64,000 bases of DNA from Lingula anatina (lineage: Eukaryota; Animalia; Brachiopoda), in assembly GCA_051362555.1 (NCBI GenBank), contig CM120645.1:15004001-15068000 (forward strand), given 5' to 3'. This document shows positions 11,895-35,879 of the stretch, piece by piece. The first letter of the stretch is position 1. Each line of letters starts with the position of its first letter. Below the pieces are notes generated by a model. That model saw nothing but the letters and a program-made list of their open reading frames with translations, was not told the DNA's origin and searched no databases. A program made the translations under genes and the position numbers.

Positions 11895-14250
11895 TCATCG
11901 CTTTGCCTTGGTAAAATACTGAGGTATTCTTTTCTTTTTTGAGGAAGCCTGCAGTTTGTTTCTTCTCAGTGCTTTTTTCCTTTTCATTCTGTATTCCTAC
12001 AAGAATAAAAAAACTATTACTAAGAAATTGGGATACAATTTGAAGAACTACTAATAAAGTACAGATTTACAAAGTACTGAAATCAATAGAAATTGTTTGT
12101 GATATATAGAGCAAAGTCTCAAAGAAGGTATTACAATTATAAAAACACTCTTCTACGCTTAGTTGACAAATTTTAATTTAATCATATTTAACCAATTGTT
12201 ATTTAATAAAACTAATCATTGATTATTAATTAATATTAAATTACAATTGGTTTAAATTTATTAAATTAAAACGTGTTAAGTATTTTGAAAGTACCTCTAC
12301 TAGATCTGGTTTCTGTTCATTCCACTTCTTTCTAATCTCCTCCAATCCCTCCTGTCTGTGGAAAAAAGCTATGCCCTCTGGAGAAACATTTACAAATCGC
12401 GTTATAGATGATGCTAACTGAATTTTTGAGTCAATGTGTAATTATTTTCACTTTTTTTGTTTTTGTTGGAATTCTGATGAATGATCTATCCAGACATAAT
12501 CAACTAAATTTTTTTTATGAACAATAAAAATTTTCATAATGGAAATAAAAAAACCTTTGCATCACCAATGCACTGTCTTTATTTATTCTTTCGTTACTTG
12601 TGGATATGCAAATAAAAGAAAAAATCTAAACATCTTCTGAAAAATTTTTCTCTCATTACCTTTAAGTCTATTGTCATCTTCCTTGAAAAAGAAAGTCTTT
12701 ACTGTGGTAGACTGTACAGGCATTGTTTCTGCACGACGCTCACTTATATTACTGAAATACAGAAGTCAAGTTTACTCATAACATTTACATAGAACCATGT
12801 CTAAACCAGAGATTCAGAAAATTACAGGGACAGTAGATAACTTTTGTCATATAACTCACATACTACCTCTTCTTTTCAACCATTGCTCAGTCAATCTTGC
12901 ACGACAACAAGTTAAACTATTAATTTTATTATAGTGGCAAGACAGCAAGTAATGCAGCCATTATGATTAAAGTAAATATCTTATCTTTACCCCTGTCTAA
13001 GGTTTTTGCAGTGGGTACTTATCTACTCCTAGACTGGGTTCCCATGAACAAAAACACAGGGTCAGTCTAACTCTATGAAGATTCACGCTAAATTGCTATC
13101 AACTCAAGAGGCTATCACACCTACTGATTTAGCTAGGGGATAATTAACTTTCATGCATGCTCGGGCCTCCAGTAATTAATTACCACCTAACAGCTTTTGT
13201 AGGCATGGCAGACATTTAAGCAGCTTAAGTTAATAGCAATTAAGTGAGAATCTCCTTGGAGATAGATCGATCCAAAGTTGGTACCAAAGTCTCTGGGAAT
13301 GGTCTCCTAGTCTCCGATTTCCTGGTCTTCCTTCAAACCTCACCTGTGTTTACTGGCCTTTTCTTCATCATCTTCATTATCCTCCCCATCATCACTGTTT
13401 GTGAAGCAGAAATTCTCCTGTTGCCATGGCAATGTGCTTGGCAGAGGGGAAGGTTTAGTTTTCAGTTCTGAAAATGTGAAGAAACAAACAACTTCTAGAA
13501 TCAACAAATTCACTTACAAGCCATTAAATTAATACGAACTTGTATATATTTCAATAAATTGTCTGGGCATTTTCTGCAAAATGATTTTTTTACCAAAAAG
13601 ATATTTTTCTTTAGATGAAGGGACAACATTAAAAAATCTTTACCAAAAATATATTTTTCTTTAGATGAAGGGGCAACATTAAAAAATCTATCATTTCTGC
13701 TACAGTACAAAACCTTTACATATTATCTTCAAATTCACATTATGATGAAACAACACACTACCTTTATCATTCATCTCTTCATCACTGCTACTGGTGCCTC
13801 CCTCTGGTGACTGTTTGCTGTTGCCAAGGAAACTAAAACCTTGATCACTTGCACCACCAAATATGTCCTTAAAAGATGTACTGACTTCATAGAATTTTTC
13901 TTTAGAAACTTCAGGCACAGGATCTATGTCTGTCTTTTCATCATCCGTTTTATTCTCAGTTTGTTTCTTTTTCCTAAAGCACAAGCAGCAAACTTATTAA
14001 ATAGATGCTTATTAAACCATTTTCAGTTAAAACATAGTAGAAGTCATATTAGCAAAACATTTTGTAGACCTCTGTATCTTATCAAAACAGCTAAACTGAC
14101 TACCTGTGAGAATATTAATGCTTTTAAACCTCAATTGAAATTATTCTCCTGTGACAAGTTTTAAAAAAGTTCTTGACTCACAGTTATAAGTTGTTTTTGC
14201 AATATCTTAAGAATGTTTAAGCTTTTTTTAAAATGATTTGGTGGGCAGAT

Positions 14251-14332
<82 letters not shown>

Positions 14333-17300
14333 CAGTTATCCAAGAGTACATGTTCTTTAAATAATCTTACTTTTCCTTTTTAGCAGGAACTGTTGACTCT
14401 ATCTTCAACTCAAACTGCTTGTGTTCTTCTCTGGTGGGATCATATCTTACACCACTGATATCTCTGCAATAAAAATAAATTTACTTCTGATGAGAAGTTA
14501 CGGAAAATATTAAAGTCACCAAAAAAAAAAAAAAAAAAAAAAATTATAAAAAAAATAATAATAATAAAATAAATAAATAAATAAATAAATAAATAAAATA
14601 AAATACAATAATAATAAAACATCTGCCAAAGGTGTTTTATATCTACAGAAAACAAAATCAAAATAGAAATCAATATAACCTTATGTCTGTCTTACTTCAA
14701 TGTGTCAAAATTTGCTAGACTCCAATTAAAATGCATGGAATGAAAATGTGAAAAGAAAATTATGTAGCTGTACTTACGTGAATGCAGATCGTCGTTTAAC
14801 CCGTTCACTTTCCCCAACCACTGTCTTTAAGATCTCAAGAGCTTTCTTCTTTTCTTTCTGCAAACTATTCTCATCTGCTGCCATTTCAGAATCCTGGTTG
14901 ATATCTTCTTATTGAAAATTTAAAAGTAGTGTAAGAATGTTGTCCTAACAATGAAACCATAACTGAAAGCATGCTATCTTTGTTCTATTTAATATAAAGT
15001 TCAGAACACATTAAATCTACTGCTTTGCTTTCTTTTCAATACAATTTGACACAAGATACGCACAATGTCAATCAAGCAAAGAATCATCTATAACATCTTT
15101 GACATACAATTTGAAACGAAAGAGAGATAATATAATTCAAATCATTAACCAGGGATGAGACTACCATTTTAATATAATTAGTGAAAACATGGGTTAGGGT
15201 CCAGGGGGCCACCTGCATCATTCTCAAAAATGATATTTTTGGCTCCCAAAAAGTCAGAAATCCACTGATAGTCAGAAGAATCTCACTGCCGTTTAACATA
15301 TTCAAAACATATAACTTGACACAAAATTATACAAAAACTCACCTTGTGTATCTCCTTCCTCTCCACTGTCACTCTCCTGGAACCTCTCGTCCAGCCTGAA
15401 ACGACTGTCACTTCCAAATCGTCCCTGCAGCTTCATTAACTGAAATGAAATTCCAACATGCCCTGTCAATCATATCAAATTACACCGTTCATTCTTTCAT
15501 GTATGAAAATAGCATTAAAAAATCCCTATCTGAATAAACTTAAAAGTAAGAACTAAAAATGCCTTTAAATATTTTATCTAATTTTTTTTCATTCAAGATT
15601 ATTTATATAAAGTTACTGGTTGGGTACAATATATTCAAACCAGTTACTTCATTTTATGCTACTGTTCTACTTGAATTAAGTTACTGTAAATCAATACAGT
15701 GTCAAATATCGCATCAAAAGCATGTATAATATAGCAGTTATATTTTGGGTTGTTATGCCAGTTTACAGGGATGAAAGCTTTACCTTCTGCCCTGCCTTGC
15801 CCTCGAATTGTGGTCGCAGTCTGAACATATCTGTCTCTTCATCTTCTTCTGCATCACTGTCATCACTGTCAAACAAAACTGAGGTCTTGGGGGCCTTCTT
15901 GGTTTGACTTTTCAAAGATTTTGAAACTGTCTGAAAGTGCAAAAATATTAAAAACTTATTTGGCTATCATAAAACAATCAGCTTCACAAAGAAATATATT
16001 CAAAAATAAAAGATGCTCGTTTCTTGTTAACTGTCTCAATATTACTGTTGCTTATGTGCGCAACTACTGATACTTTTAAATTTCAATCAAATTTTTGTCT
16101 TTTTCCTTTAACTTGAAATAAGACTCTTACAATTTCTTCTTTCTGGGTCTTGGTACTTGAACTGGGTACACTTTGTATAGGTTGCTGTTCCTCCTCAGAG
16201 TCTGAGTCAAACACAATGCGCTTATTCAACGTGCTGCCACTGTCCTGTAAAAGTTGAAACCGGCCTTGACACCATCACCAACATATAATTCTTAAGGCAG
16301 CAATAAGTGATTCACTTCCCCCCCCCCCCACATTTTAATGTTTAGAACTTCTTCACAGAACCAACATATCTTGATTATATTTTAGTTTGTACATATCCAA
16401 AAACCTATACTTTCCAGATTTTTTTGCCTAAATCAATGACAATTTATTAAATAAAATCTTATGTATTTTATGTTTCTTTATATGAAACCCATCATTTTCA
16501 ATGACCAACTTTGTTTATAATGCTACCATGCTTTATTCCTTTTCTTACCACTGCAGCCAGGGCCTGTTGTATGGCACGCTTTTGGTCCTGGGTTTCTTTC
16601 TGTCTCTGTTTCAATGCCTGTAATCTCTTCTCATTGTCACTCTGGTGTTTCTCCTCTGTCATTCTGCTTGCACTGCCACCTACTGGTATGTTTTTCTTTT
16701 TGCCTTCTTCACCTACTGGTGATTTGGGCTTTGTTACAGACATGCTCGTATGTCCCTGACCAGATTTAATTGGTGAACGCACACTAGTTCTGCTTTGAGA
16801 TGCAGCAGTAGAAATTTCTGTATTCAAGTTTGACAGATTTCTCTCTTTTTGGCCAGATTTCACACCTAGGCCACTTGAAGTCTTTTTGACTACTGTCTTG
16901 GCAACTGTTTTCTTAGATACTTTGCCATCCGAATCCGAGCTGGAAGAATCACTACTCTCACCATCAGAAAATTTGGCTAAACTGCTGTCTTCAGCTTCAC
17001 CATGTTTAGTTTTATTCTTGTCCTTATTTATGGCAACCTGGCCTCTGTTGATGGCACTGGAAGAAGACAAACCAACAGGAACAACTTCAAAATCATCATC
17101 ATCAGCATTATCAGTACCAGGTTTGTTTGTGCCTTGTCTCAACCTCTCTTTCTCCCTCTCTTGTCTGATCAATTCTTCAATATCACTTTCCTCATCTGAA
17201 CTAGATGGAGGACCGACTCCCCTTGGAGCTTGGGATTCTTTTACAGGATCATTCGCTAAACGCTGCTTAGGCTGTAATACAGTTTTCTTGGTAGATTTAA

Positions 17301-20300
17301 CATTATCAGAGTCTGCAGAGGAATCTCCATCCATATTGTTGTCCTTTCTTTGAATTTTTTCCTGTGGTTTGTCTCTCTCTGAACTCTTTTCGTTATCAGA
17401 ATCCATCTCCTTACTGTCATTGCAGTCATTTCGAGGTTCTAAATGAGACCTCCATCTTGTTAATGTGTTTATATTAGCAGGAGAGTCCGAGTTCGAAGAA
17501 GACTCCTCTTCACTGCTATTATTGTCATCACTTTCACTATTAACAGTTCCAGTTACTGACTTTGTCAATTGCTTTTGTTTGGTAATTGGTGCATGCTTAA
17601 CAGAAGTTCTTGACGAAATTTTTGAAGATTGATCTAATTGCATTTCACATGGCCTTACATTAGATTTCTCATTGTTCTGTTTCTTGATGCTTTCAGCATT
17701 ATTTTTCAACTTGGGTAAACTTTGGGTCAGAGGCGATTTTGATGACTTAGATTTTGATTTATTTGAAGTGAGCAGTTCATCTGTATCAGCAGAACTTGCA
17801 GACTCACTCCCAGATTCATCTCCCTGGTTTTGGATATTATTGCTCTCATTATTACTGTTTCCCTTTTTCTTCTTTTTAAAACTTTTTGTCAAATTAACTC
17901 TATCCTGTGATGGTTTTACTGCAGACATATGGCTTTCAGAAACAATTTCAAAGTCTGAGTTCATTGAGTTTTCTTTCAATTTAGAGCTAACAGTGCCATT
18001 CTGAATGGGGGTCACTTTTAAATCCATATTGGATTTGGTATTGTTGTTCTTCTGTGGTGATTTCAGATGAGTCCATTTCTCAAATTCCCCCTTTCTTTTC
18101 TTGGTGATTGCTGAATCATCCTGGTCCATTTCCCAGGTCAGGGACTGAACTGGACACTGGTCAAAGCTGTGGTCATCTTTAATTTTGGTTAGTTGGTGGC
18201 ACTGCTTGGAGGGGTCCACCCGAAGGAGCTTCAGGAAAATTAAGGGAAACGTTTAAATCATCAATTTATGTCAACGTGTTCTTTTATCAGGATGTTGACA
18301 AATATAGCAGTTATATCAAAAGGGATTAACTCTGTTTTTTTATTGACAGTATATTTACAAAAGAAAACAAATAATTATATAAACACAATTTCTACTAAAT
18401 CATGGTCAAATCACTACTAAATCATTCTACTGAACTGATTAATATTTTTATCACTGAAGTTCTCCAAAAGACAATAAAAAGTAACTCAAAAGAATACCTT
18501 CTTCTTATCTTTTTGCCTGATGTTTACAACTGGTAAAACTCTTCCATACTTTCCAACAACCCAGTCCTGAAGAAAATAAGTTTCAAATCACATGTCTTAT
18601 TTTATACATCTGTGCATGCCATCACAGTGCTATCAGAAAAAGGCCCTGGGTAATTTTTCAGTTTTTATTCTATCAAGAGTTTACTAGCCCAGTGTAAATC
18701 AATAACAATAACTTTGCAAAGGTGGACTTCTGCTTAGCTGATTACATCAGTTATAATGTTCAGAATCAATTTTAGTGGCTTAAATATGGTGGAAACAGGC
18801 GACTTAACTAAATTTAAAACTAACTTAAAGCCATATCATTTACACAGCAATCATAACTTGGTATTCATCTACTATTATCCAAGCCTCCTCATTTATGACA
18901 ACAAAAACATAGTATATAAAAGAGAGACTTGACTTTAAAAAAAAAAAAAAAGTGCAAGATTCAGACATGGACCAAAGGGTTTTTAAATCATGACGTGCAA
19001 AATGGTCACCTTTTCTCCAGTCAGCTCAGTCCCAGGGATGGCACCTTTCACTGTGAGAGTGTCTCTGTCCAAATTAGGCTGGTCTTTGAAGGGATCATGA
19101 AGCACCACTGAAGCAGACTTGGACTTTTTTGGTTTCACTTCCTCAGGCTCAATTTTCAGACTTTCTCGTTCTCGTTTCAACCTATTGATTTAAGACCACA
19201 TATGTTGTTTGACATAAGATATGAACTTGAAAGGTTTATCTTAACTGTGTGCTCACTCTAGGAAAATTTTTCCTATAGCCAAAGAACTGGATAACCTTAG
19301 CCAAATCAGAGTCCATGATAAATAAATCATAATAATCATAAATACAATCAACAACAACAACAATAATAATAATAAATTAAAACATGTTTACTATCTGGCT
19401 TAAATTTACTGTACTAGTGTGAGCCCAGATTTTACAATGAGAAAATCTCATCAAGTAAGAAACCTGAAAAATATGCATTACTCATTACTGCAACTTTTGA
19501 TGCTTCAGATTATAAAAGAGAGAGAGAGCAGAAAACAAAGCACATATCAGTGAAGGGCACAAATACATAGTCTCAAGACTCTGGCAGAACACTACTCCAC
19601 ATATTGAAACAATCCAGTTACCTGTCTAAGAAACTTTCCTTGGCCAGTTGTATCTTGACTTCTCTTCCTTTCCACTTTGTCTTGTTATACATATTAATAC
19701 CTGAAATAGGACGTTTATTATCCTAATGTGGTAAATGAAATCTCTTTGAGTATAATGCTTTAAAGTTCTAAAATATCATTATGTTTAAATACACTTCTCT
19801 GTCCTCTACGGAAAACACAACTGAATAATTATCTATATCACTGATGAATTAAACTACAAATAGAAAATGAAATACATTTTTAAGAACTTACACTTTTTCA
19901 GATCAGCATCAGTGATACTTATGTCTAGGTAAGCAAAGGTCTTGCTTCCAGCATTTACACCTGTCATAAAAAATAGTCTTATAGTCAAAAACATGCTTTT
20001 AAAGAGCAAGCTAGGATACAGAAACCACAGAAATGTGAAATGTTTCAAGGTAAATAAAATATTTGTGAAGAAATGATACACAGGCTATAAACAGTATTAT
20101 TACTTTTTATTCGTCAAAAACAGCCAAAATATTTTTTTTTTCACTGCAAGATAAGTGTCAGGTTCAACATTTACCTTATACTGAATCCATAAGAAATATG
20201 TACTTATAATGACTGCTGTAATTGCAAAACATCAGTTTCATTAAAATCATAGATTCATACCAATATTAACTTTAACTTACCAGTTAGATCCTTTTGTAAC

Positions 20301-20410
20301 CTGATATCAATGCCATTGATATTTCCAAACCTGGCAAACTTAGTCCGGAGGTCATCTTCAGTGACCTCCTCAAACAATCCCCCAACATACAGTCTCTTCC
20401 TTTCTGCCAT
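11895..20410 (-). CDS. NOL8: Nucleolar protein 8 (N-terminal RRM), ~1130 aa, 16 coding exons
   Basis: Exons: 20410-20281, 19960-19892, 19700-19622, 19181-19010, 18566-18498, 18228-16549, 16244-16131, 15930-15784, 15439-15343, 14907-14778, 14463-14371, 13973-13762, 13467-13344, 12751-12660, 12377-12295, 11996-11895. All are GT-AG and in phase. NOL8 motifs: KRLYVGGL, DLKKC..YNKTKWKG..IQLAKESFLDRL, WVVGKYGRVLPV, PQFEGKAGQKLMKLQGRFG.D.RF, YDPT, FFFKEDDNRL. A non-coding 5' exon has its donor at 21099. Confidence 0.95.
13030..13307. mobile_element. Old degenerate MITE in a NOL8 intron
   Basis: Shares TTCACGCTAAAT and GATAGATCGATC..CTCTGG blocks in inverted orientation with 29846-30059. Confidence 0.5.
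14254..14329. repeat. (GA)n microsatellite
   Basis: Directly visible. Confidence 0.95.
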
Positions 20411-21099: not shown

Positions 21100-21400
21100 T
21101 TGACTTTTTTTAAACCATAGAAGAAGTGGTGTGGTTCGTGAAATCAACAGATGCCATGCTTTCGGAAATTAGGTCAGCAGGTGCTTGGTAAAATTGTCGA
21201 TAGGTGGCGATAAATTACCGCGAAATCAATTTTAATTTTTTTAATTTTTGGTAGAATATTTCAAAAAAATTAACTATTTCATATAAATTTTTGAAAATTG
21301 TTTTCGAAAATTAATAGTAATCAATTTTTAAAAATATTTTACTTAATAAACAATGCGCCCTCTAGCATACCATTATGAATCTCAAAATGGCGGGCAGTTC
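21100..21400. promoter_or_regulatory. Bidirectional promoter region shared by NOL8 and CENP-P
   Basis: The NOL8 5' exon (minus, from ~21165 to 21100) and the CENP-P ATG (21387) diverge about 220 bp apart. A YY1-like CAAAATGGCGG overlaps the CENP-P start. CpG-containing flanks surround an AT-rich core. Confidence 0.7.
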
Positions 21401-23721
21401 AGAGGGAGATATTCTGGCCCATGTTCAACGGACAATAACCGAGTAAGTCTTTGAAAAAAATCTAGAAAATTTCGAAAAAAATCATGTGTAAAAGGTAAGG
21501 ACTTTGCAGGATGAAAAGCGCTTATAGTGCGCTCAATAATTTTCTTAAACGTGGTAGAACAAAGGAGGTCCCGAAGCCCCATGCGGTCGGAGAACGCGTG
21601 ATGTCACACATTCGGTATTTTGAATTCGCGCTGATTAATTCAGAGCTAAAGAACTATCGTTCTGGGGCGTTGAAATTTATCGGAGACAAAATCTTTCGAT
21701 TTTATTAAGTCATTTGCTATTTTACCTTTCGATAAAGGGGTGACTAGAATATGATTCACTGCATTTCGATCAATATTGAGTACACACCACGTACCGAACA
21801 ATGAAGCGCGGGACAAAGCGTGCTTCCGAATGTTTACAGTTTGAGTAAATATCCACAAAAGATTAACCCTCGTCCTGGAATAAACTCCTTTGTTTACAGA
21901 TCCGGTAGGTAGTAGGGCAGGTAAACGTGAACATTTACGAAATTCATTTAAGATATTTTTTTTTTCAAAAAGAAAGGGAATACGTTTGGATAGGCAAACC
22001 CTTTGTCTGTTGTGAATTAACTGTGAGGAAATTTCAGTAAAAACTAGAAGTATTGGGAGTCCAACTTCCAAGATGTTTAACAAAGAGGGTAGGAACAAAG
22101 TGTTTAAGCAGAAATTTAAGATTAAATTAATTTAAATTTAAGAATACAGGAGATGAAATTGAAATTAAGAAGTCATTGAGGAAAAGTGCTTGGAAGGTAG
22201 ATTGAAAAAGAACAAAGAAAACTGTGAATTTTTAATCTTCAGCTGAAAATTCCAAAATAATGTAATCAGCAGTTATCCAAATGTTATGATCAATCAAGAA
22301 AATATTTCATTTCTGCAATATTCAAATATACAAATTTGAAAGTAAAGAAAAACATCTACTAGTATATAAATAAATATTTATGAAAAGCACTAGTTAATAT
22401 TGTACAGAAAATCATTAAAAACCTGTATACAGCTTCAGTAGTGATATTTAGTATTGAAATTGTCTGTAATTGCCACTGAATCATATTGTGTTATTTGAAA
22501 TACTCCATAATTTTTCTTTCCTTGTAAATAGGTTCCCAGAATCAAGTGAGCCTGATAATAATGATCATGATGAATCTGTTGAAAACCAGCCTCCCAGGGG
22601 CCTGGTTAATTTGGTGGAAACACAGGGGCAGATTTTTACCACAGATGATGGGGAGGATGGTCCTGGTGACCTGAAAGCAAAATATTTGAAAGAAGTAAGT
22701 AGACATAGGAGTAAGGATATTCAGTGAAATTTATGGATAAGAAGTAGGCAGAAAAGGTAGTTAAATTTTTCAGTAAAATGTGGAGGCAGAAGTATGTTCT
22801 TTAATTTTAAATAATTTTTTTGACTTCTGTAATGTGTGCGAACTTGGCAGATCAGATAAATTTTATTATTTTTTTTTTAGATTTAAAAATGACTTGTTTG
22901 AAGTACTTAAAAAATCTTTTGAGGGTGGGTAGCTTTTTGAGAAATATATTATAATGTGTCAAACATACTCACTTATGACAGTCAAAATGATTTGGTGTGG
23001 AATATTTTACCAGTACTGTTTGTATTATATTCTAGATAGCTGAACTGGAGCAAGAAGTGGCTTTATTAGAAGAGGAGTATATGTACAAACAGACAGTGGA
23101 AGGCCTTCAGCTAAGTTGGGACCAATTGGAGCTTATTTTGTAAGTGTCTTAAATTTCTAATTTTAAATTGATTTATTGTTTTTGAATATACACAACCAAT
23201 ATAACCTGTGCAGTCAAAGGTATTTTTCATCCACAGACAACTGTAGCAATTGAAAGCGCCATGATTGTGAAGGAGAAGTTTTCATAACTAATATTTGGTT
23301 ACATAAAGCCTGGTTATTACCCTAAATCCGTCTGTCTTTGTGGTTTGTTTCAGTTGATTTTTTTAAAGCAAGAACAAAGCATTTTAAACTTGTTACTAGC
23401 AAATGCTTTTTAGTCTAGATTTTGCTGAATATTTAAGGCAGAATTAGTTACATTTTAATAGCAGACATTTACTGAGCCTTTTGAATGGAGTTATATATCT
23501 GAAGCCAACATATTCACCCGCTGGAAGTAAATTATGGACTTTCATGTAATATCATGACTGGACCACCAGTTGAATCTAAGCAAGGCATAACCAGTCACTG
23601 AGCAGCGCAGGTGAAGGTGGTGACAGCATGCACTGAGCCATTAGCTAATGAGATTCCATGTAGGAAAAAGACATGCTCAGGAATATTGGGAAACTGGCAA
23701 TGGATGTGATATCACGGGGGT

Positions 23722-23752
<31 letters not shown>

Positions 23753-26700
23753 TATTTTATGATGGTTCATCTGGTTTGCCTTTGTTGATATGTGACTTAT
23801 GCAATGTCATGAATAATTGAAGATTTTGTGTAGCATGGTATTGTGGTGGAAATGCTGTCATCAGATTAGTTTTCGAATCAGTCCAGTTAAAATTGTGGAA
23901 AGTTAGAAATTGAAGTCCAAGTATTTTTTTACTGAATTTAGGTAGCCATAATCAAAATTGAGTCATGGTAAGAATGAACTAGCTTGCTATAATGTAACAC
24001 TTTTAATTAACTTCAGCTAATAACTTGCATTTTTAAGAATATTATGTTCAGTTTTATGATATTAACAAATATACATTGGATTTAAACAAACATTGAATTT
24101 TAGAAAACGCTTGTATTTTGAATGTAATTGTAGTTTAAACTTGCACTCAGTATTTCCTAAACAGTTGGTGATTTAAGAAGGCGCATAGGTGTTTTAGAAT
24201 AAAAATTTTTAATTTTTTATCTTCATATTGTACACAGTGCTGAAAAGAATGTAAACTGTGGTTTTAAAGAACTGAATTGTGTAAGCAGTTGATCAGAACG
24301 ATTTTAGCTTTATCATATATCAGAATCTAAAATTTCATTTGATGCCAAATTGTATGGATACTTAGTCAATCACTAGTTACTAGAGCAGCTACAATAATAA
24401 ATGTTACCTTTTTGTCCAACATCGGAATTGAAGATGTTTACCATATTAATTGTGTTCTTGGAAAAATTGAGTATTGGGGCATGTTTCATTTGCTAGCTTT
24501 CATATAATTGTAATTGAACGGGATTTCAATTATGTCTTTTGACGTAAGTAATTTACAAAAGGTGTGTTTGTGCTCAGTAGCTAATTAACACATTTTGAGT
24601 GGCTGGCAAGATTAAAAACATCCTTTTTGGGATTATCATAATTCTCCTGCTGTGAGTATTCCAAAGTTATTTCAGAGGTTGTCAGCATTATCAGATTAAT
24701 ATAGGTGTTAATTGAGACTTCACAAATTAGCAAAATGACTGATGAAGCAGAATTTTCATACAATGCTGTCTGGCAAGAGAAAACCTAAATTGCTTCAGTC
24801 CATCTGATTAAAAGTTCGCAATGACTGTTAGAATCTTTTTCTGTAAGAATATATTGCCTGAATCCTGTTCTGAGTGTGTTTACAACTTTATTCAAATATC
24901 TCGTTAAGTAAAAGTGAATCACCATCCTGAAAGCCTGTTCCTAGAACTGTAGCTAGGATGAATCAGGCCGTTTGGTTGCTGCAGTGTATTGATTTTTGCA
25001 TTGGTCGCAGTGCATTCTGCCCAAGCATAATGTGTCATTTTAAGGACGAGTGCAGCAACACTTTTGTTTACATCCATATTTTTCCCCCATCAGATTAAAA
25101 AAAAAAAAACGGAAGGGCAAGGTGTCTTTAAAACCAGAAAGACAACATAAATAGAAAAATGAATTGAAGTCTGAGGTTGCACTGGTTTGACATACGGACA
25201 GAAAATATGTTGCTTCTATGCCCTTGTGAAATGTACCATGCATTGGAAAAAAATGGCTAATTTGTCTCTGGGGATTAAAGCTGCAGAATGTATGTTTTTA
25301 GCCCTTTGACATAATTTATTTAATTTGTCTGTTTTTATTATTTCTGAGAGGGGAGTTCTGGTTTTTACACCTCTCTGATGCATCTTTTACAATTCTTTGT
25401 TTGACAATAAAATTTTAATCATCTACTTTTCAGACAGTGTGTTGAATCATCATCATCATCAAACTATGAAGAGGCCCGCAAGGAAAAAGCTGAAACTTTA
25501 AAAGAACAGGTAAAGGCCCATTTCCTTAAAAGTCCCTTTGTTCACCTTGGTTTTAATCCTAAAGACAATTGGAGAGGCCCAGCCCAGAACACACAATAGA
25601 AATACATATACAGTTGCTGTACAACCAAATGTTGACCAGAAGCTGTTATAGTTCAGTTTTTCAGCGAGGTGATTTGTGTTGTTCAGATTCTGATCGAGGT
25701 GTGTTTCTATTGAAAGCTTTTCACTGTGTTAACGGGGTGAATGAATCATTGTTTACACTGAGTACCCACTCAGGTCAGCACTGAGTGGGCTTCATAGCCA
25801 ATCGGCTGTTGACCCAAACATTGAACAATAAAACCAAACACTGCTCAAAAATATTTAAAATGTTTCTCTTAAGGAAAACCAAATCTTGATATAATAAATG
25901 ATTGTCACATTTTCAATAAAATGGTGTGGAGATGATAACAAAGAAAAGGGACAAAGAGTTCAACACGCGACAAAGAGAACAGTGATTGTAATATCTTTAA
26001 GGTAAACCAACAAATAAAAGAAGCCAAGGACAAAGAGCAATAACGGCAGGGTTTTTTTGTAAGGTCTTTTGTAGTGGTGCTTTTGTGTGGAAGTGGAGTC
26101 CGATTCACTGCAGGCAGGTGTTCCGGAGGTCACGGAGTAAGGAGCGACAAGATATGATCCTCTTTCTAGATAGGGATCATGCAGGTTACAATAGTAAATG
26201 GACTGCACAGTTAACACAGTTGTGTGTTTACTGGACTTGGTGATATGAAACTGGGGGGCACCTGCCTTCATGTTAATTTTTGCTTCTGCTGAACAATTAC
26301 GGAATTTTAGAAAATTGAGTGGGAAGTCATGTTTTGCCTAATTTGGCCTTTTTTTTGTTCAGTTGTACGAAAAATGCTGCACTAAATTAAGTACAGTTTT
26401 GTTTAAAAAAAAATCTAATGCCTGTTTGTGAAGTAATTCTGCAAGCTCGTGTTTTTCAGCCCTTGTAAAGGATTTCTCTAAAGGGACATTCTTGTATTGA
26501 TTTTGTATTACTTGAGGATAGAGTTAAATGTTCGAGTATTACTGGTAAAAAATAGAAATAAATCATACAGAAGTTTTGTCTATTTTGTTTTTAGGATGAG
26601 AATACCTTAAGGTAATTCAAGTTAAAAATAACACTACATATGAAACTCAACCTTCAATTATAGCAAGTAGCAATTCATACCATGCTCATGATAAAATAAG

Positions 26701-29700
26701 TGGCTCATGTTTTTAGACACTTAATTGCCAACCTTAGAGGGCTTCTGTGGAAAAGATTGTTAAAAAGAAAAGATGGATCTCTACCATGTACCAGCTTGCT
26801 TTCTGTTCGTTTAAGGGGCTGTGAAATGTTGAGTTGTTTTCATATCACAGCCCGCTTTGACGAGCTAGAGGGGAAGACCTGACCAACACTATTTCTAGCT
26901 GATTCAAATGTCTGATCTGCCTTTCAAGGTAGACACCCAACAATCAAAATAAATAGTTCGTGATTGGATAAAAAGAATACTAAATCAATGCAATAAATAA
27001 AAAATATTATATGTATTTAGTTAGAAAAAATGTTCAGATTTGAAATAAATGTAAAATGGCACAAAAGGGCATAAGAAAAAGGTGGATGTATTGCCTTTTT
27101 TTTTTCTGGTTATACCAGAGAAACAAATGTTTGGTCCCATTGGCTCCCTGTAGTGAGATCAATCAGGCTTCTCTGAGAGTTATCATTGAACCATCCCATT
27201 TGCTGTGTTCCCATTGGACAGGCCATTCACCACACTACGTAATTCACAATTAAATCCCTTAAAAGCTGTGCTTATAAGAAAATGTCTTCCAAATACTCCA
27301 TGTCAGCAATGATTATTGCCACTTTTCCTTTAAAAAAAAAAAATGGAATTTCATCATTTGTGTGAGGGGGGTGGGGATATGGTAGGGAGGGGGGGTCGGG
27401 CTTCATATCTGTGATAAAGTTGATCACATTGTGAGATTCTGTCTGAAGGATTCGAACTTGGTTAGGAATATGTAACCATATTGTAAGGAGTAGATACTCT
27501 CTCTTCTCCAGTACCCTTCAACAGAAAATGGTGAAGAAACCATAAATCTGAACAGGCCTGGTTAATTAGTTCAAGAGTAGACCTAAAGAGTATTGAACTG
27601 TTGTTGAGCCAGCTCTATAATTCATTAAAGTCGTTGGGTTCTGCATTGGCTAGGCATTGATACAGATTGCCGACTTAAGCAGTTTACATATGGGTATTCA
27701 TATTTGATTATGTATCATTTTTAAATGCCATTTTGTTTATATTACATATGATGAATAAAAAGCTGTGTATATCATTACTATATTTAATTTCTTCTTTGTT
27801 TTTGTTTGGGATTCACTACTGCTGCTTCACTCCATGGTTTTTCATAGATTGTTTCTTTGATAAGTGGAATAAGAGTGGGTCATCACTAAGTGCCTTTTTT
27901 ACACTTCAAAGTAAATGCTTCAAGGATAGGCACAAAATTGCTAGGTGCAATTTATTGAGTTAAATGTCATAAATGATCTAACCTCTCCAAGGCCTTCGTT
28001 TCTCAGATGTTGGCTCTGAATGCGGAGGTGTCCTAACTCGGTTTGGCAGAGGTCGTAACCACCACAGTGACCCTGATTAAATCTTTGGCCTCCGAATGGA
28101 GACTAATAATAGCAGTAGGAGGGCCATAGCCCCGTGACCCTGGGAATTAATTATGGGACTCACCCGGGCAGAAAATGTATCTGCATTTCCCCATTTTCTC
28201 TTATACTAAATTTGCATTTATGTAGAGCAAAGCTGTTCCTGGCTCAGTTCCAGTGTGATGTCCCAGGCACTCTTCTTTCTCCTATCTCTTAGTCTGATTT
28301 AAGGGAATACATATCTCTGACACCATCTGATCTTTTGAAGGCAGAAATATGGATATTATTTTGTGCTCAGTGGAGACGGAGCCTGCTTCCCTACTAGTTT
28401 AGAATGCTATATTTAGAGTGAGCCAGATATATTTACATGTTTATTTTGGTAAAAACTCTGGAATGTCCTTGTTTACGGTTTATTTTTTGTTTTGACTTAT
28501 GAGTTGTCTAGGAGTAACAGCATTTTAAAAGGTGAAGGAGTTAAAATATTATCGTGGCTAAATTTAGATGTAAATAAGCAGTCATAAAGTCTTCTTTCTA
28601 AATATTCCCTGAATGATTATCACTCAAGTGTCAATGAAAATAAATGTGTCTGTCATTGAAAATAATGCCAAGGATCAGTCAAAACTGCAATTCAAAATTA
28701 ATTACCTCTGAAACAATCAAAATTGTTTCTCACTGTGCCAAGAGGAAATTTTTGCGGAACTCAGAAGATGACATTTAGAGTGCTAGTGTCCCCGTGGGCA
28801 TCAAGGGGGCTGTGATGTGTAGTCTATTGTTCATATCACAGCCCGCTTTGATGAGCTATGATGACACTTCAACGCCATTGCTGCCTATTGATCAAAAGTT
28901 CTACTTAGGATGATTTTGTTGGAAGGGGTATATTTTGATTTTAAAACTCATCTTAATATTATTGCCAATAAGGAAGAATTGTTTTTGTCCTGTAAGCAAT
29001 CTGTGGACTGTTGGATATTTTTGACTGGTCAGAAGTGTGATGTTCTTTACAGTTATGAAATACAGAACATTTTTAGTAGGGGATAAGGGGGGGTGGGGTT
29101 TGTTAGGGTGTGATGGAAAAAAATTGACGGGTTTGCTGATACCATGCAGTCCTCATCCATCAAAGTGGCTGTGAAGCAATGATATTGTCTACTGTTGTAT
29201 CACAGCCCCGCTTTGATGAGCTGAGATTCTGCAGTCGTTCTACCATAACCCAGAAATCCCTTTGTAGTCAGTAGTAGCTACCATCATTGAAATTCTAGAA
29301 AAAAGAAAGAATATTGTACATATTCTCTTTATTTTTCTCTTTTCTTGATAGCAGAACACTTGTTACTGGTCTGGTTAATGAAGTGTTGATTATGTAGTAC
29401 ATAAATATTATAATAGGATGGTTAGGCAGTTGATCTATTATATCTGGTATTTCTAGGGCAATTGTTATGGGGTTATAATCAATGAAATTCCATCAATATC
29501 ATGATGAAGTAGAATCTCATATGTTAGAAAAGAATGTTTTTTTTTCTTACCCAGTCGATGTTGAAGCTAAATTTTCCAGACAGTTCTGTATGTCATTTTG
29601 TCAGTTAAAAAGGGAAAAACCCGAATCAATTTTGTAATCCAAATTATGATAATAATCCTTGTTTTTACTCAGGGGCAGATCCAGAGATATTTTCTGATGG

Positions 29701-32700
29701 CCCTCCAAATTGTCTTTGTTGATCCATCCTCCATTTTTGACTGTCTTCTGGCAGAAAAAAAGAGATAGCTGTCAATTTAAACTATAAAATCTGACCGTCT
29801 TCCGGAAGACCAAGAAGAGGGTTTTAATCCGCCCCTGTTACTTTGGCTGTATTCCAGAGCTTTTAGATCGATCTATCCCCGTGGGGAGTCTCGCTAGATT
29901 ACTGTCAGATAATCCAGCTTAAATGTCTGTCCCGCCTACTGCAAACTGTAAGGGGGTGATTAACTTTCGTGTCCGCTCGGCTGACAGCTATTTAGCGTGA
30001 ACCCCCAGGGAGTTAGGTCGATCTAAAGTAGATCGATCTAATCTCTGGAAATGGGGTCTTAGACATCAGTCTGAGCTGGTGAAAATGTACAAAGATGAAT
30101 AACAATAATAATACATTTTAGGTTTAACAGTTATACATATCCACACATTATCCATCTCCTTAATGTAAGAAGTAGAAGAAAGCTGTGAAAGTAATAATTT
30201 ATAAACACCACAGTGTGAAAGGTGCTAATTTGACCCTTGCAGAGCACAGGTAACAGCAGTGTGATTTGTTTTGAGCATATGGACTTTGTCCTGCACAGTG
30301 GTTGAAGAAGCATAAACAGGTAGTGAAAGATGGTGAACATTGATAGGTTCCAGGTTCTTACACTTAAAGCCTAATGATATTAGCTAGATCAAGGGCAAGT
30401 GTGCTAGAGAAATATGAATATCTTCCTAACTGGAGTATGATAATCCTGCTATTAAAGCAAGGATGATAGAGGCCTCTTTCCCTATTGGATATCTTGGTCT
30501 AGTCCCCGGGGACTGCTGAACATATAGCATATCACCATTAGTATGGCTAATATGTTTTTGCTTAGGTTTCCTGGGCTATCCACTTTTCCTTAATGTCCTG
30601 GATTAATTCAGATCTGCAGCATTTGTTATTGTGCAACCATGCCATTTCAAGGGATTTCCCTTGAGACTGGGTTATAATAAGTTCTAGGCAATGTGATCTC
30701 AGTGAGTCACCTGTCCTTTGTATGCATATTAGCTGTGTTTTTCTATACAGAACTGGGGCAGCATTGGCTAGAAATGTGGGAGGTTTTTAAGTAGGGAAAA
30801 GGAAAATTTATGACTGATGGTTTACTAGAAGGTGGCTTGGTTCCAAGAAGTGGACTTTGAAGGTCAGTGATTTTTTTGGGCATTTGTGTATAAATGCTCT
30901 TTTCTGGGTCCGGTTTTTTGGGGAAAGTGTTTAAGAAAAAAACGTGACGGCTCCTAAGATGGGTAAAGATAAGTGAAATATGTTAATTGAAGGAAATTAG
31001 GTCTGCCTAGCAATCATTATAGTAAGAATGAATTTGCATCAACATAATTGAGTAACTGATCTACAATGAGAGTCATAGGAATGCTCTACGTAGGATTTAG
31101 ACTCGAAGTAAGAAGAAAAGAAAAGGTTACAGGAACATTTTAACTAGATTTAGCTTCAGAATTGCTATCAGCATCACTTTTATTAACAGCATATTCTTGC
31201 ATTTAATCATTCTTTTAATCTTTTTTTTGTGCTCTGCCAAATTTTGAATGACTTATTTTTAGGTGGTAGCACAGTAGTGTGTGGACAGTTCTCCATGGAG
31301 AGAAAGTGAAGTCTAAAAATTCTAGCCTGAAGGCAATTTACTGGGAGACCTACAGAGTATTTGCAGTCCTCTTCAAGAAATCAGTGCTTGGTTTTTATCA
31401 ATCCCAGAAAATTCTATTCAGCCTCTTGTGGTTAATTAAGGGAGTGAGGTCAGGGTTTCCATGGCAACATTTAAAAAGGAAATGGTTGGAATATTATAAC
31501 TGGTCTTGTGTGAGCAGTATATGGATTCTGGGGATGTTAGCTATGTGAATATTTGCTCATCTGTCTTCAGTTGAAAGAGAATTACACGGATTTGTACAAA
31601 AGATGCTGACATGTTTAATTGATTGATTTCTGTTTTATGTTTCATTCAGTCGGCTCTGTACCATAGCTGAATGCTAGCTGTGAATACGAAGCACAAACAA
31701 AGAACAGTGGGCCCCCTTTGTTAGCATTCCTGTCTGCTGACAACATGATTGCATTTTGATTTATAAGCATAACCCAATGGAGCTGAAAGTTCAAATTATG
31801 TATCCTAGCAACATTGAGGGAGTCATAACTGACCTTTATGTGGTATCCTAGCAACGGGGAGGGAGTCATAACTGACCTTTATGTTGATGTTAGTCTGGGA
31901 GGAAAGCAGGCGTGAAGTGTGTTGCCAGGAATGAGAGTTTTGTTGCCGAGTTTCAAGCAGTTGACCTTCTCTCGGAAGACGGGATTCCTCTCTCAGCCTC
32001 AGGCATGCCCTGACGCATGTGCCAAGCAGTACTTTCTTGCCTAAAGTTTATGTGGAATATTTCCCCGGGTGTAATGTCAGGGCTTACCCTAATCCCATCA
32101 CAGGTGCTGAGGCATATTACACGAGATGATATCATATAATTACACAGGCGGTCTGCCATGCTGGTAGTATGGCTGTATAATAGGGGTTTGGGTTTGAGTA
32201 GTGCCAAATAGGTGTCCTGTACAATTTTGACACAGCATTGAGCCAAATGCATCTGAAGGCTGGACCATTTTAACTGAAACAAATTATCCAGATGTTCTGC
32301 AGTTTTTTGAATGTCAATTTCCTTTGTGTACAGGTGTAAAATAATGTTAATGTTATCAAAAATGATCTGTCCAACACATTACCACGCATGGAAAATGTCA
32401 TGATGTGTTGACTGTGGTGAGGAATAGAGTTTGCACCAGATAAAAGAAAGGGAAATGAGAAGAGAGGGGAAAATCCCTGCATCTTTAGTAACCTAAAATA
32501 ACCCTTGGTCATAAATCAAGAATAAGGTTTACTACATGGATGGGATAAGAAATCTCTGAAGTACCTTTCACGCAATTTACCAAATAATCAATGAATACAT
32601 CCAAAACAGCTGCCTAGTATTTTTGGCAAACTATTGTTTTTTTCTAATGACATTTCACCATACACTCAATACGTGCTCACCTAACATTTTAATTATAGCT

Positions 32701-35700
32701 TTTTGAAGAATGCCTGAGGAGCAGATTGATGGCGGTGGTGAAACTTGTATCCATGCCAATAAAAGAGTGTTGAAAAAACACAAAGGAGATTTATTTATAG
32801 CGTGTATTGGTTTTTATTCTGGTTTTGCAAAGGAAGCAACTCTGTGACCGAGTCTGGTTACTGTGGTGGAGTGTGGTAGCATGCAGATTAGGTGTGGTGG
32901 GAAAGGGGGGGAATGGGTGCATAGTTTACGAGTTGTGAGGTTTGATTTTTCCAGCTATTTGCTGATTTGTGACTTTTTGGGAGTCAAAATTATCATTGTT
33001 GAGATCTGTGCAGGCTGCTTCCTGCTGGACCCCGTGCTATATTGTCAGACTTTTTCACTGAAGGCTGGTCTTGTCTTTGGACGTAGCTTGGGCTGGAATG
33101 GGAGGCAGAAGGTTGTGGTCAAAGGCACAATTGCTATAGTTGTTCAGGGATTGGGCACAACAGTAGTGAGGTCTTTTGAAGTGCCTGATGATTAACTGAG
33201 TTCACTGTTACACTGTGAATCTATCCTGTTTTGCCTGTCTTCCTCCAATGGACTTTTCCAACTTGCTTTCCCAATGTTGTTTTTTTTTTTCAAATGTAGA
33301 AATGTGGGGATTTTTTTTCTTATTTTGAAAATTTCAGGATTAGGGTAAGATAAGAAGATTGCCAGTGAGTGAAGATTGCGATTGCTGAGCTGAGTTTGTC
33401 AAAGCGGCTGTGATTTGGTTGAAATTGACACATATCACAGCCCGCTTTGACGAGCTTACAGCAACACAACACAACCACCTGAGCTAGGCTCCATAGACTC
33501 TTGCTCACCTGGAGTTTTTTTTTTTTAAAAAGAGAAGACATTTTGATTGAGATTTAACACATGGTGTAGAATATACTTGCTACAGCTAGTGTATAGCTAG
33601 TACTTTAAGAGGTTAAATGAAAGAAGTTAGATTGTAGTAGCTGATTTAATGGGAAAATGTGATTTTACTTATATTTATTATATGTATTTAGACGTTTGTC
33701 TTGTCATCATTTCAACACCTTCATATTAAAAAAAAACTTATTTACTAAACAAATGAGAGAATGGTGATAAAAAGGATATAGAAAAAAAAAACAGTTTGAA
33801 ATATTTTCATTATTCTTTAATGAAAGTTATATCTTAATCTCATAGGTAAATTTATCTTCTGTAAGCTTAGTAATCATGTAAACTGTTTGTCATTCCAGTT
33901 AGAAAGGCAGTCAGCATTGACTGGGGTTGTCTTCACTGATACAACATGTCACATCAAAACTTTAGGTAAGACAAGAAAGAAAAAAAATGAAATGATGAAA
34001 ATGTTTTGTTTGGAAGGGCATTATCCAGTCTGGTACATTTTCAACTTGGATGTCAGAAATGGAACTTCAGTTTTGAAATTTAATTACTATGTGAGAGGAT
34101 AGAAATGACTGTTCTCTCCATTCATTTTTTTTTTTAATTTATTACTTAGTATATTTTGATCATCAACTTAAAAATGACATTTTAAAATAAGAGCTGAAGA
34201 ATGCTAAGCTTTCTTAAAAGAAGCAAATGAGATAATGATTATCATGTAATAAATATTGTGTCTTGACTTACAGGTCCAAACAGAATTGAAAAGCAGCAGA
34301 AAATATCCGGGACGTGCTATGGCTTCACTTTCCAGTTGGAAGTAGATGTGTTGGAAACTTCAGTACGTATGATTGATTGATCCAATAGTTATACAAGATA
34401 AATACTTCAACTAATTAGTGTGAAGTATTTATTTAAATATAGATATTTTTGTTTATTCAGGCATCCATCTTTACTTTAGTGACAAAGATGTAAGATTACA
34501 TGTTTTGTTGAAGGCAAATGTGGTAAAATTTTGAGGCACTTTAAGTTATCCTAAAGAGTTTTTGTTCCAGGTTTCGGAAACAGAGAACAAGGCCTGTTTA
34601 ACAAGGTTGAAAATAAATGTTGACAAACAAGTTGCTAATGACTTGGTGGAATTTATAGACAAGTATGTATAACAAATAGAATTCAAGCTTGTATGGTAAA
34701 AAAAGGGAAGAAAAAAAATAGAAGCACAATTTTAATACCCTTAAAGGAGCAAAGGAATTGTGCATTCAAGCATCATTACAAATTGTGTAGCTAAAATATT
34801 ATGATTAAGAAAAAATTAAAACCAAAAAAATAATTGTTAATGGGCTAAATGAAATTATGTTGATCAGCAAAGAAAGTTTTTTTGTTTTTGTTGTTGTGAT
34901 AGCAAAATAAAGAACGAGGAAGTGCCATTTTATTCTCTTTACAGTGTTATTGAGAACAAGAACATTAGACGCTTCTTTTCTGGGTTCAGTGCCTTTTGCA
35001 AGTGGAGGACTGTAATGAAGAAGACATTCCATCATTTTCAGCAGAAGTACCCCGAGGCAGTCAGTCTGCCTCATGGGTCAGAGGGAGCTTACTTACAGTT
35101 TAGACACCCTGATGCTGCCGGGTAGTGTACTGAATATACTTAAATAGCCATTTTGGAAAAAAAAAATGAAATTGAGATTTTTTTTTTTTTTTTTGCAGTA
35201 TCTGTTCATTGACAAATGAAGAAATCAATCACTATGTGTGCCCATATTTGAAGAAATAAAAACAAACTTTTTTTTTTTTTTTTTTTACCTGACTGTTATA
35301 CGTAACATGTCATTTCTGTTCTTCTGTTAAAAACTGACAGTGGAAAATTTATCTTTAACTGCATGTAGACGGTTCTACTTGACGGATTGGTTGATGTATT
35401 TCAGAGCTGTGTGGACAGTGCGGTGCTTCCTTGACGTCACCCAGCATGGGACTGTTGACCCCGATATACAACTCTATGTCAAGTCCCCGAAGCAACGTGA
35501 GTACATTTGTTGGTAATTCATTTTAGAATTAGACTGCACATTCTGTTATCTGTACCACTAGATTCTCTCAGTTGCGTGGTTTTGATAGATGGTATTTGTT
35601 TTTCAGTCTATTCAGGTGGTTTCTGTCACACAAGTAGGATATTTAATTAATTTGTGGTTTAAGTGAATAATTTGAAAAAGATTAATTTCCTGTAGGCTGT

Positions 35701-35879
35701 TGATGTACTATGAATTATAAATAAATATAATTGAATAGTGATATTGGTATTTGGTTTCAGTGCTTGAGCTGGATGAAAAGAACACCCTTGCCTCGGCACC
35801 AGAGCAGTTTAACAAGATGGTGCACACTTTGGGACTGGAGAAATCACTGGACATTATGATACAAGCCACATGCTGCTGA
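21387..35879 (+). CDS. CENPP: Centromere protein P (CENP-O/P/Q/U complex subunit), ~344 aa, 10 exons
   Basis: Exons: 21387-21442, 22532-22694, 23036-23139, 25434-25509, 33899-33965, 34274-34362, 34571-34662, 34945-35121, 35405-35496, 35761-35879. All are in phase. The translation has SALTGV, ISGTCYGFTFQLEVDVLE, KKTFHHFQQKYPEAVSLPHG and LELDEKNTLASAPEQF..MV.TLGLE, matching human CENP-P motifs as I recall them (LSGNCHMVTFQLEFQILE, TFKHLKEKYPDAV, LELDKNRAIETAPLSF). Confidence 0.9.
26799..26875 (+). ncRNA. mir-2: miR-2 family precursor 1 (mature 3p ~26843-26866 UAUCACAGCCCGCUUUGACGAGCU)
   Basis: The 5' arm TTCGTTTAAGGGGCTGTGAAATG pairs with CATATCACAGCCCGCTTTGACGAG. miR-2 seed AUCACAG; CNNC (CAAC) ~18 nt downstream. 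Confidence 0.93.
28785..28868 (+). ncRNA. mir-2: miR-2 family precursor 2 (mature 3p ~28834-28857 UAUCACAGCCCGCUUUGAUGAGCU)
   Basis: 5' arm CATCAAGGGGGCTGTGATGTG; basal stem AGTGTC/GACACT; apical UGUG; CNNC ~16 nt downstream. Confidence 0.93.
29145..29233 (+). ncRNA. mir-2: miR-2 family precursor 3 (mature 3p ~29198-29222 UAUCACAGCCCCGCUUUGAUGAGCU)
   Basis: 5' arm CATCAAAGTGGCTGTGA; basal stem TGCAG/CTGCA; CNNC (CTAC) ~18 nt downstream. Confidence 0.92.
29670..29837. mobile_element. MITE with CAGGGGC termini and 5-bp TSD (inverted copy of the 8257-8424 family)
   Basis: CAGGGGCAGAT ... ATCCGCCCCTG flanked by TTACT/TTACT. Internal AAAATCTGACCGTCTTCCGGAAGACC is the reverse complement of the 8257 copy. 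Confidence 0.85.
29846..30059. mobile_element. MITE with TTCCAGAG..TAGATCGATCTA subterminal inverted repeats
   Basis: TTCCAGAGCTTTTAGATCGATCTA ... TAGATCGATCTAATCTCTGGAA; related to 13030-13307. Confidence 0.6.
33382..33464 (+). ncRNA. mir-2: miR-2 family precursor 4 (mature 3p ~33433-33456 UAUCACAGCCCGCUUUGACGAGCU)
   Basis: The 5' arm AGTTTGTCAAAGCGGCTGTGATTTG pairs with CATATCACAGCCCGCTTTGACGAGCT. Basal stem TTGCTG/CAGCAA; CNNC (CAAC) ~16 nt downstream. Confidence 0.93.

What the first reader, a model, noticed from the sequence alone, without database searches (positions are those of the whole stretch)
25510..33898. Four-member miR-2 cluster inside CENP-P intron 4, apparently without miR-71
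Seen: four sense-strand hairpins (~26.8, 28.8, 29.2 and 33.4 kb) with near-identical 3p arms, divergent but compensating 5p arms, basal stems, and a CNNC motif 16-18 nt downstream in all four. This intron is by far the largest in the gene. I found no miR-71 (UGAAAGAC..) by eye. Established: miR-2 is protostome-specific and is typically described as a compact mir-71/mir-2 cluster in an intron of a protein phosphatase 4-like gene; in Drosophila it represses K-box and pro-apoptotic targets. Inference: a second or relocated, more dispersed cluster hosted by a kinetochore gene under a bidirectional promoter, possibly coupling miR-2 dosage to proliferation. This is the best candidate for an undescribed system in the window.
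Basis: partly seen in the sequence, partly recalled or inferred. Interest (0 to 1): 0.85.

Follow-up and report, generated by a model that had tools for sequence, protein, structure and literature searches.

The report
Brachiopod miR-2 cluster inside CENP-P gene
Four copies of the invertebrate microRNA miR-2 lie, without their usual partner miR-71, in the largest intron of the kinetochore gene CENP-P of the lamp shell Lingula; three of them are very likely already catalogued, so only the host gene and possibly the fourth copy are new, and a link to cell division remains untested.

Summary
Observation confirmed. Rfam finds four sense-strand mir-2 precursors above the family cut-off in an 8,389-nt intron that is spliced in 4 of 4 RNA runs. 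The host is a 10-exon CENP-P gene, head-to-head with NOL8. No miR-71 was found in the window. The organism is Lingula anatina. Novelty is much lower than claimed: hairpins 1-3 match MirGeneDB Lan-Mir-2-o75/o76/o79 in lengths and spacing (359 = 359 nt; 1,990 vs 1,982). Lingula keeps two miR-71/miR-2 clusters elsewhere. miR-71-free Mir-2 clusters are already tabulated for Platynereis, Capitella and oyster, and the oyster one lies in an SMC4 intron. Not found in my searches: that the host is CENP-P (RefSeq holds only a truncated 'uncharacterized' model) and hairpin 4. Most likely these are tandem paralogues cropped from CENP-P pre-mRNA that add seed-identical miR-2. Proliferation coupling is plausible by analogy only (oyster SMC4-hosted miR-2a is about 4.6-fold enriched in early embryos).

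The parts
21387..35879 (+). CENP-P gene, 10 coding exons (21387-21442, 22532-22694, 23036-23139, 25434-25509, 33899-33965, 34274-34362, 34571-34662, 34945-35121, 35405-35496, 35761-35879), 344 aa; RefSeq starts 4 codons earlier (21375)
   Evidence: Open frame with GT-AG introns. Exon 8 matches Pfam CENP-P PF13096, E 5.9e-12. 8 of the 9 best homologues are named CENP-P. 8 of 9 junctions listed as RNA joints; the exon 6-7 junction is seen as loose ends.
25510..33898 (+). CENP-P intron 4, 8,389 nt, host of the cluster
   Evidence: Joint skipping 8389 nt, GT..AG, in 4 of 4 runs; exon 4 letters joined to exon 5 in 4 of 4 runs
26807..26865 (+). pre-miR-2 hairpin 1 (predicted 3p arm 26843-26865); likely Lan-Mir-2-o75
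   Evidence: Rfam 62.7 bits; z -5.9; 59-nt length gives a 2-nt 3' overhang
28797..28856 (+). pre-miR-2 hairpin 2 (predicted 3p arm 28834-28856); likely Lan-Mir-2-o76
   Evidence: Rfam 61.8 bits; z -6.9; length 60 and spacing match
29156..29220 (+). pre-miR-2 hairpin 3 (predicted 3p arm from 29198, 1-nt insertion, longer loop); likely Lan-Mir-2-o79
   Evidence: Rfam 48.4 bits; z -5.3; 65-nt length and 359/364-nt offsets equal the MirGeneDB ones
33396..33455 (+). pre-miR-2 hairpin 4 (predicted 3p arm 33433-33455, identical to hairpin 1's); not in the MirGeneDB-derived cluster table
   Evidence: Rfam 58.4 bits; z -9.3; no fourth row for that scaffold
11898..20410 (-). NOL8 coding exons, divergent from CENP-P (start codons about 1 kb apart)
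   Evidence: Lingula 'nucleolar protein 8 isoform X2', 93% over the largest exon; exons mapped by tblastn
25510..25599 (+). Read-through of exon 4 into intron 4 (29 codons, then a stop), which ends the RefSeq model XP_013383509.1; four AATAAA at 25827-26013
29670..30057 (.). Interspersed repeats in the intron (one shared with 8257-8424; a MITE-like element at about 29854-30057); not part of the microRNAs
   Evidence: self-blastn; thousands of partly fitting reads on both strands

Best explanation
This is a cluster of four MIR-2 family hairpins in intron 4 of the Lingula CENP-P gene, three of them very likely already in MirGeneDB, that likely arose by duplication away from the miR-71 cluster and are likely cropped from the CENP-P pre-mRNA to give seed-identical miR-2. 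Steps: (1) Shown: CENP-P is transcribed and intron 4 is spliced; the hairpins are sense-strand, stable and carry the family 3p arm. (2) Inferred: Drosha/DGCR8 (helped by basal stems and CNNC) and then Dicer release 3p miRNAs with the canonical AUCACAG seed. MirGeneDB curation of three loci implies read support (criteria recalled). (3) Inferred: expression follows the NOL8/CENP-P divergent promoter, so these copies add miR-2 without miR-71. (4) Speculative: that biases the extra dose to dividing cells, where it would damp seed-matched targets (pro-apoptotic genes in flies). Odds: genuine processed Mir-2 genes about 0.95; mainly host-driven about 0.6; selected proliferation coupling about 0.25.
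For: Rfam, folding and covariation. Splicing. In run X17, 16 of 26 bins of the intron's 3' half have low coverage, all on the sense strand, with no peak pointing to a separate start; one of these bins holds mis-laid reads. Species: RefSeq Lingula proteins match exons 1-4 letter for letter and NOL8 at 93%. MirGeneDB match. All four share the canonical seed, and most mir-2 loci give redundant products (PMC3384581). Oyster PPP4R1-hosted mir-2s track their host (r up to 0.93; PMC4138081). Oyster SMC4-hosted miR-2a-3p and 2b-3p are 4.6- and 2.0-fold higher in egg-to-D-larva than later, relative to three PPP4R1-hosted miR-2.
Against: No small-RNA reads were available, so processing was not observed here. 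Intron coverage is a few reads, and three of the four runs are poly(A) libraries, so an intronic promoter is not excluded. C. elegans mir-2 and mir-71 have their own promoters inside ppfr-1 (PMC2835999). In oyster only 21 of 76 intragenic miRNA-host pairs co-vary strongly. The spread over 6.6 kb and a possible early poly(A) isoform ending before hairpin 1 would also fit independent transcription. No miR-2 seed site in 1.3 kb after the CENP-P stop, so no direct feedback on the host.
Confidence: 0.6

Rival explanations
1. The hairpins are real miR-2 genes with their own promoter(s) in intron 4; CENP-P is only the landing site, and expression is unrelated to proliferation.
For: C. elegans mir-2 and mir-71 have intronic promoters with patterns unlike ppfr-1. 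The intron is 3.7 times longer than the next largest, and hairpin 4 is 4.2 kb from the rest. Host genes of miR-71-free clusters differ (SMC4, spitz).
Against: No coverage peak or start pile-up inside the intron in 7 distinct runs; sparse sense-only coverage fits pre-mRNA. Depth is too low to exclude it.
Confidence: 0.3
2. Evolutionary rival (compatible with either mode of expression): the cluster is the orthologue of an ancestral lophotrochozoan second Mir-2 cluster that moved between hosts, not an independent brachiopod duplication.
For: miR-71-free clusters exist in Platynereis, Capitella, oyster and Lingula. A C at mature position 11 marks 4 of 4 copies here, 3 of 5 versus 0 of 7 in Platynereis, and 2 of 2 versus 0 of 6 in oyster.
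Against: In Capitella the mark is reversed: 0 of 3 in the miR-71-free cluster and 2 of 4 in the miR-71 cluster. The Lingula copies keep the canonical 3' end seen in miR-71-cluster copies, unlike the annelid second clusters. The oyster host is SMC4. Lottia and Nautilus lack a second cluster. MirGeneDB names these loci '-o', meaning paralogy uncertain.
Confidence: 0.25
3. Hairpin 4, or the whole cluster, is a decaying or unexpressed copy.
For: Hairpin 4 is absent from the MirGeneDB-derived table; no small-RNA data were seen here.
Against: Hairpin 4 has the strongest fold (z -9.3), an intact arm identical to hairpin 1's, and a compensating 5p arm, while its flanks have diverged to background. That pattern implies selection. 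The RefSeq gene model also stops in this intron, which suggests the older assembly or annotation is faulty there.
Confidence: 0.06

Closest known systems
MirGeneDB Lan-Mir-2-o75, -o76, -o79 (Lingula anatina, LFEI01000806; seen in supplement 5 of PMC12257675)
   Same: Same species, strand order, precursor lengths (59, 60, 65) and spacing (359 and 364 exact; 1,990 vs 1,982). Listed without a Mir-71. Very likely the same loci as hairpins 1-3.
   Different: No fourth member is listed and no host gene is given in the table. Sequences were not seen, so identity rests on coordinates.
Oyster cgi-miR-2a/2b cluster in the SMC4 intron (PMC4138081)
   Same: miR-71-free, sense-intronic Mir-2 cluster in a mitotic-chromosome gene; C at position 11.
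   Different: Two copies, a different host and different 3' ends; orthology not shown.
Ancestral mir-71/mir-2 cluster in PPP4R1/ppfr-1 introns (PMC3384581, PMC4138081)
   Same: Same family and seed, tandem array, sense-intronic.
   Different: No miR-71 here; host is CENP-P; spread over 6.6 kb rather than 1-3 kb.
Annelid miR-71-free Mir-2 clusters (Platynereis scaffold_3, Capitella scaffold_876)
   Same: Second cluster without miR-71.
   Different: Compact (0.35-1.1 kb), diverged 3' ends, host not stated in what I read.
microRNAs hosted by proliferation genes: Drosophila miR-11 in E2F; vertebrate miR-15b/16-2 in SMC4 and miR-25 in MCM7
   Same: Intronic microRNA in a cell-cycle or chromosome gene. 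miR-11 shares the miR-2 seed and limits apoptosis (PMC3321623; hosts in PMC3675212).
   Different: Different families or hosts; function was shown there, not here.

Membership tests
MIR-2 microRNA family | Precursor matches the family covariance model above the curated cut-off | tested here: met
   4 of 4 at 48.4-62.7 bits vs 45.5
MIR-2 microRNA family | 3p arm with the AUCACAG seed and a stable hairpin with compensating 5p arm | tested here: met
MIR-2 microRNA family | Protostome host | tested here: met
   Lingula anatina by RefSeq protein identity
Bona fide (MirGeneDB-type) microRNA gene | Mature and star reads with 2-nt 3' overhangs and homogeneous 5' ends | not testable with these tools
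   No small-RNA run was offered. Three loci appear curated. Predicted ends give 2-nt overhangs.
Bona fide (MirGeneDB-type) microRNA gene | CNNC motif about 16-18 nt downstream of the Drosha cut | tested here: inconclusive
   +19, +17, +19/20, +17 from predicted cuts
Canonical mir-71/mir-2 cluster | miR-71 within the cluster | tested here: not met
Canonical mir-71/mir-2 cluster | PPP4R1-like host intron | tested here: not met
   Host is CENP-P
CENP-P | Pfam CENP-P domain and homology to named CENP-P proteins | tested here: met
   PF13096, E 5.9e-12 on exon 8, weaker hits on exons 6 and 10 in the right order
Host-coupled intronic microRNA | Co-expression with the host and no own promoter | tested here: inconclusive
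   Only sparse sense-strand intron reads
Shared lophotrochozoan second Mir-2 cluster | Same genomic context or diagnostic substitutions across phyla | tested here: inconclusive
   Position-11 mark holds in 3 species and fails in Capitella; oyster host differs; no relative's locus could be fetched

The most novel reading that the evidence does not exclude
Protostomes have repeatedly moved miR-71-free copies of the miR-2 seed into introns of cell-division genes (CENP-P in Lingula, SMC4 in oyster, E2F in flies), wiring an anti-apoptotic microRNA dose to the mitotic programme. In Lingula the cluster entered an ancient NOL8-CENP-P divergent gene pair that is also head-to-head in mouse.
Probability: 0.2. 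Interest if true: 0.6.

Novelty: new member of a known kind. Interest (0 to 1): 0.27.

Why it matters
Modest. It gives a host gene and a possible fourth member for a catalogued brachiopod Mir-2 cluster, and it corrects a truncated, unnamed RefSeq model to a full CENP-P. Together with the oyster SMC4 case it makes one question testable: do miR-71-free Mir-2 clusters preferentially sit in, and follow, mitotic genes? If so, that would be convergent wiring of a conserved seed to proliferation. If not, it is ordinary birth-and-death of Mir-2 copies.

Tried and rejected
No whole genome is held for this window, so other Lingula Mir-2/Mir-71 loci come only from a published table. The one metagenome scan for a hairpin-shaped pattern gave 3 loci; none folds as a mir-2 hairpin, so all were treated as chance, and no relative's CENP-P intron could be inspected. 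A homologue search with exon 8 among longer proteins found nothing (weak evidence, but no Lingula record holding that exon came up). A profile search found 4 proteins and no mollusc or annelid CENP-P, so I could not test whether the oyster 'SMC4' model CGI_10009524 is correctly named. No RNA holder of the stretch was listed and no small-RNA run was offered; RNA runs came as same-species additions. A sense-strand pile at 33028-33062 looked like a hidden exon but is a 35-nt match inside reads from another transcript: rejected. A fifth seed match at 32097 and a miR-71 seed match at 25137 do not fold: rejected. Position-11 C as a marker of the second cluster: rejected as diagnostic (Capitella). 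The ESM Atlas gave only generic RRM names for the neighbour; one search named it. Earlier findings of this scan: none by words or by sequence. One bivalve miRNA paper was not held. PMC8915122 main text, PMC9679248, PMC12261956, PMC11701709 and PMC4595640 were searched by term and gave nothing on host genes of these loci.
Full report
Observation. An Rfam scan of the whole window gave 5 hits at the gathering score: four mir-2 precursors on the + strand (26803-26869, 28794-28860, 29153-29225, 33392-33459; E 6e-10 to 2e-6) and one tRNA-like hit at 9.5 kb. A permissive scan of 21-38 kb added no fifth copy and no mir-71. A miR-71 16-mer with up to three mismatches has 0 matches in the window, and two seed-only matches do not fold. 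That Rfam holds a mir-71 model is recalled. Each hairpin beats all 200 shuffles (z -5.3 to -9.3), and 5 of 23 consensus pairs show two-sided changes. Precursors are 71-78% alike and their flanks 37-60%: old copies whose arms were kept.

Host gene. Ten exons from 21387 to 35879 give a 344-aa frame with GT-AG introns; intron 4 is 25510-33898, 8,389 nt, against 2,294 for the next largest. Exon 8 hits Pfam CENP-P at E 5.9e-12, and 8 of its 9 best homologues are named CENP-P. The intron-4 junction is read in 4 of 4 RNA runs (22, 12, 4 and 3 reads) and again as exon 4-exon 5 loose ends in 4 of 4 runs, one of them shared. The divergent gene is NOL8; the downstream gene is UBA1-like by its translation (name recalled). 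In mouse, Nol8 is head-to-head with 1700022C02Rik at 347 bp (supplement rows of PMC1487180; that this is Cenpp is recalled). The gene pair therefore looks older than the cluster. A shared promoter is inferred from the arrangement, not measured.

Species and prior annotation. RefSeq XP_013383509.1 of Lingula anatina ('uncharacterized protein LOC106153907', 166 aa) matches exons 1-4 letter for letter and then reads on into intron 4. The host is thus truncated and unnamed in that record. Supplement 5 of PMC12257675, a table of MirGeneDB 2.1 clusters (parts 1 and 4 read, rows searched), lists Lan-Mir-2-o75, -o76 and -o79 on LFEI01000806, + strand, 59, 60 and 65 nt long, with start offsets 1,982 and 359 and end offsets 1,983 and 364. 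Hairpins 1-3 give 1,990 and 359, and 1,991 and 364. The 65-nt length fits hairpin 3's longer loop. I fitted the ends using the published lengths, so there is 1-2 nt of freedom, and I did not see the sequences. An 8-nt difference over 2 kb is unremarkable in a species with 1.6% heterozygosity (PMC4595640 passage). I put the identity at about 0.93. No fourth member is listed; numbers o73 and o74 do not appear in the rows I saw, so hairpin 4 may be one of them or be unannotated. The same table places Mir-71 with three Mir-2 on LFEI01002046, and Mir-71-P5 about 1.5 kb from three Mir-2 on LFEI01000138. The canonical cluster therefore exists elsewhere in this genome.

Comparison. The ancestral state is mir-71 plus mir-2, with copy number changing by birth and death and mostly redundant products (PMC3384581, abstract and first of four parts read). 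miR-71-free Mir-2 clusters are tabulated for Platynereis (5 copies), Capitella (3), oyster (2) and Drosophila, and are missing in Lottia and Nautilus. In oyster the main cluster is in PPP4R1 and the other in SMC4 (PMC4138081 passages and supplement rows). Relative to three PPP4R1-hosted miR-2, the SMC4-hosted miR-2a-3p is 4.6-fold and miR-2b-3p 2.0-fold higher in the five earliest stages than in 13 later samples (my ratio of medians). miR-11, with the same seed, lies in Drosophila E2F and limits pro-apoptotic genes (PMC3321623 passages); vertebrate miR-15b/16-2 lie in SMC4 and miR-25 in MCM7 (PMC3675212 passages). Against simple host coupling, C. elegans mir-2 and mir-71 have their own intronic promoters (PMC2835999 passages), and only 21 of 76 oyster host-miRNA pairs co-vary strongly.

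Orthology. A C at mature position 11 marks 4 of 4 copies here, 3 of 5 versus 0 of 7 in Platynereis and 2 of 2 versus 0 of 6 in oyster, but 0 of 3 versus 2 of 4 in Capitella (supplement rows of PMC8915122). The Lingula copies keep canonical 3' ends, and the oyster host differs. Independent duplication is therefore favoured, about 3 to 1. I could not inspect CENP-P introns of any relative.

Mechanism. Most likely Microprocessor crops the hairpins from CENP-P pre-mRNA and Dicer gives seed-identical miR-2-3p, adding dose without miR-71. Shown: transcription, splicing, orientation and structure. Inferred: processing and host dependence; in run X17, 16 of 26 bins of the intron's 3' half have sparse, sense-only coverage with no internal peak, which fits but does not prove it. 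Speculative: selection for expression in dividing cells. The CENP-P 3' region has no miR-2 site. The fly reaper/grim targets need not exist in a brachiopod (own knowledge), so the targets are open.

Print status. Searches combining CENPP or CENP-P, mir-2, Lingula or brachiopod, SMC4 and intron (listings only) showed no paper linking Mir-2 to CENP-P. The library lacks most subscription journals, MirGeneDB gene pages and bioRxiv supplements, any of which may state the host.

Verdict. A real, ordinary-kind microRNA cluster, three quarters of it very likely catalogued. The CENP-P host, hairpin 4 and the parallel with oyster SMC4 are the small new points. Interest 0.27.

Noticed in passing
window:25510-26013: The RefSeq model ends by reading 29 codons into intron 4, with four AATAAA within 420 nt after the stop; one of four runs shows raised sense coverage at 25737-26303. 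Either a short CENP-P isoform lacking the CENP-P domain and ending before hairpin 1, or an artefact of the older assembly.
   Followed up: partly
window:20410-21387: NOL8 and CENP-P are head-to-head here and apparently in mouse (gene identity partly recalled): a possible bilaterian-wide microsynteny. In vertebrates the large CENPP intron holds nested proteoglycan genes (recalled).
   Followed up: partly
window:29854-30057: MITE-like repeat with inverted ends, abundant in RNA reads from other loci; a related copy at 13176-13276.
   Followed up: partly
window:32964-33062: Short pieces of other sequence in the intron: 32964-33004 matches 15222-15262 inverted, and 33028-33062 matches an expressed transcript from elsewhere.
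   Followed up: partly
window:9501-9587: tRNA-like Rfam hit with an imperfect acceptor stem and an extended anticodon region; possibly a tRNA-derived SINE or pseudogene.
   Followed up: no
window:37900-53000: UBA1-like ubiquitin-activating enzyme gene directly downstream of CENP-P on the same strand (name recalled from the translation).
   Followed up: no
window:38812-38964: Long near-perfect inverted repeat in an early UBA1 intron, seen by eye; probably a foldback transposon.
   Followed up: no
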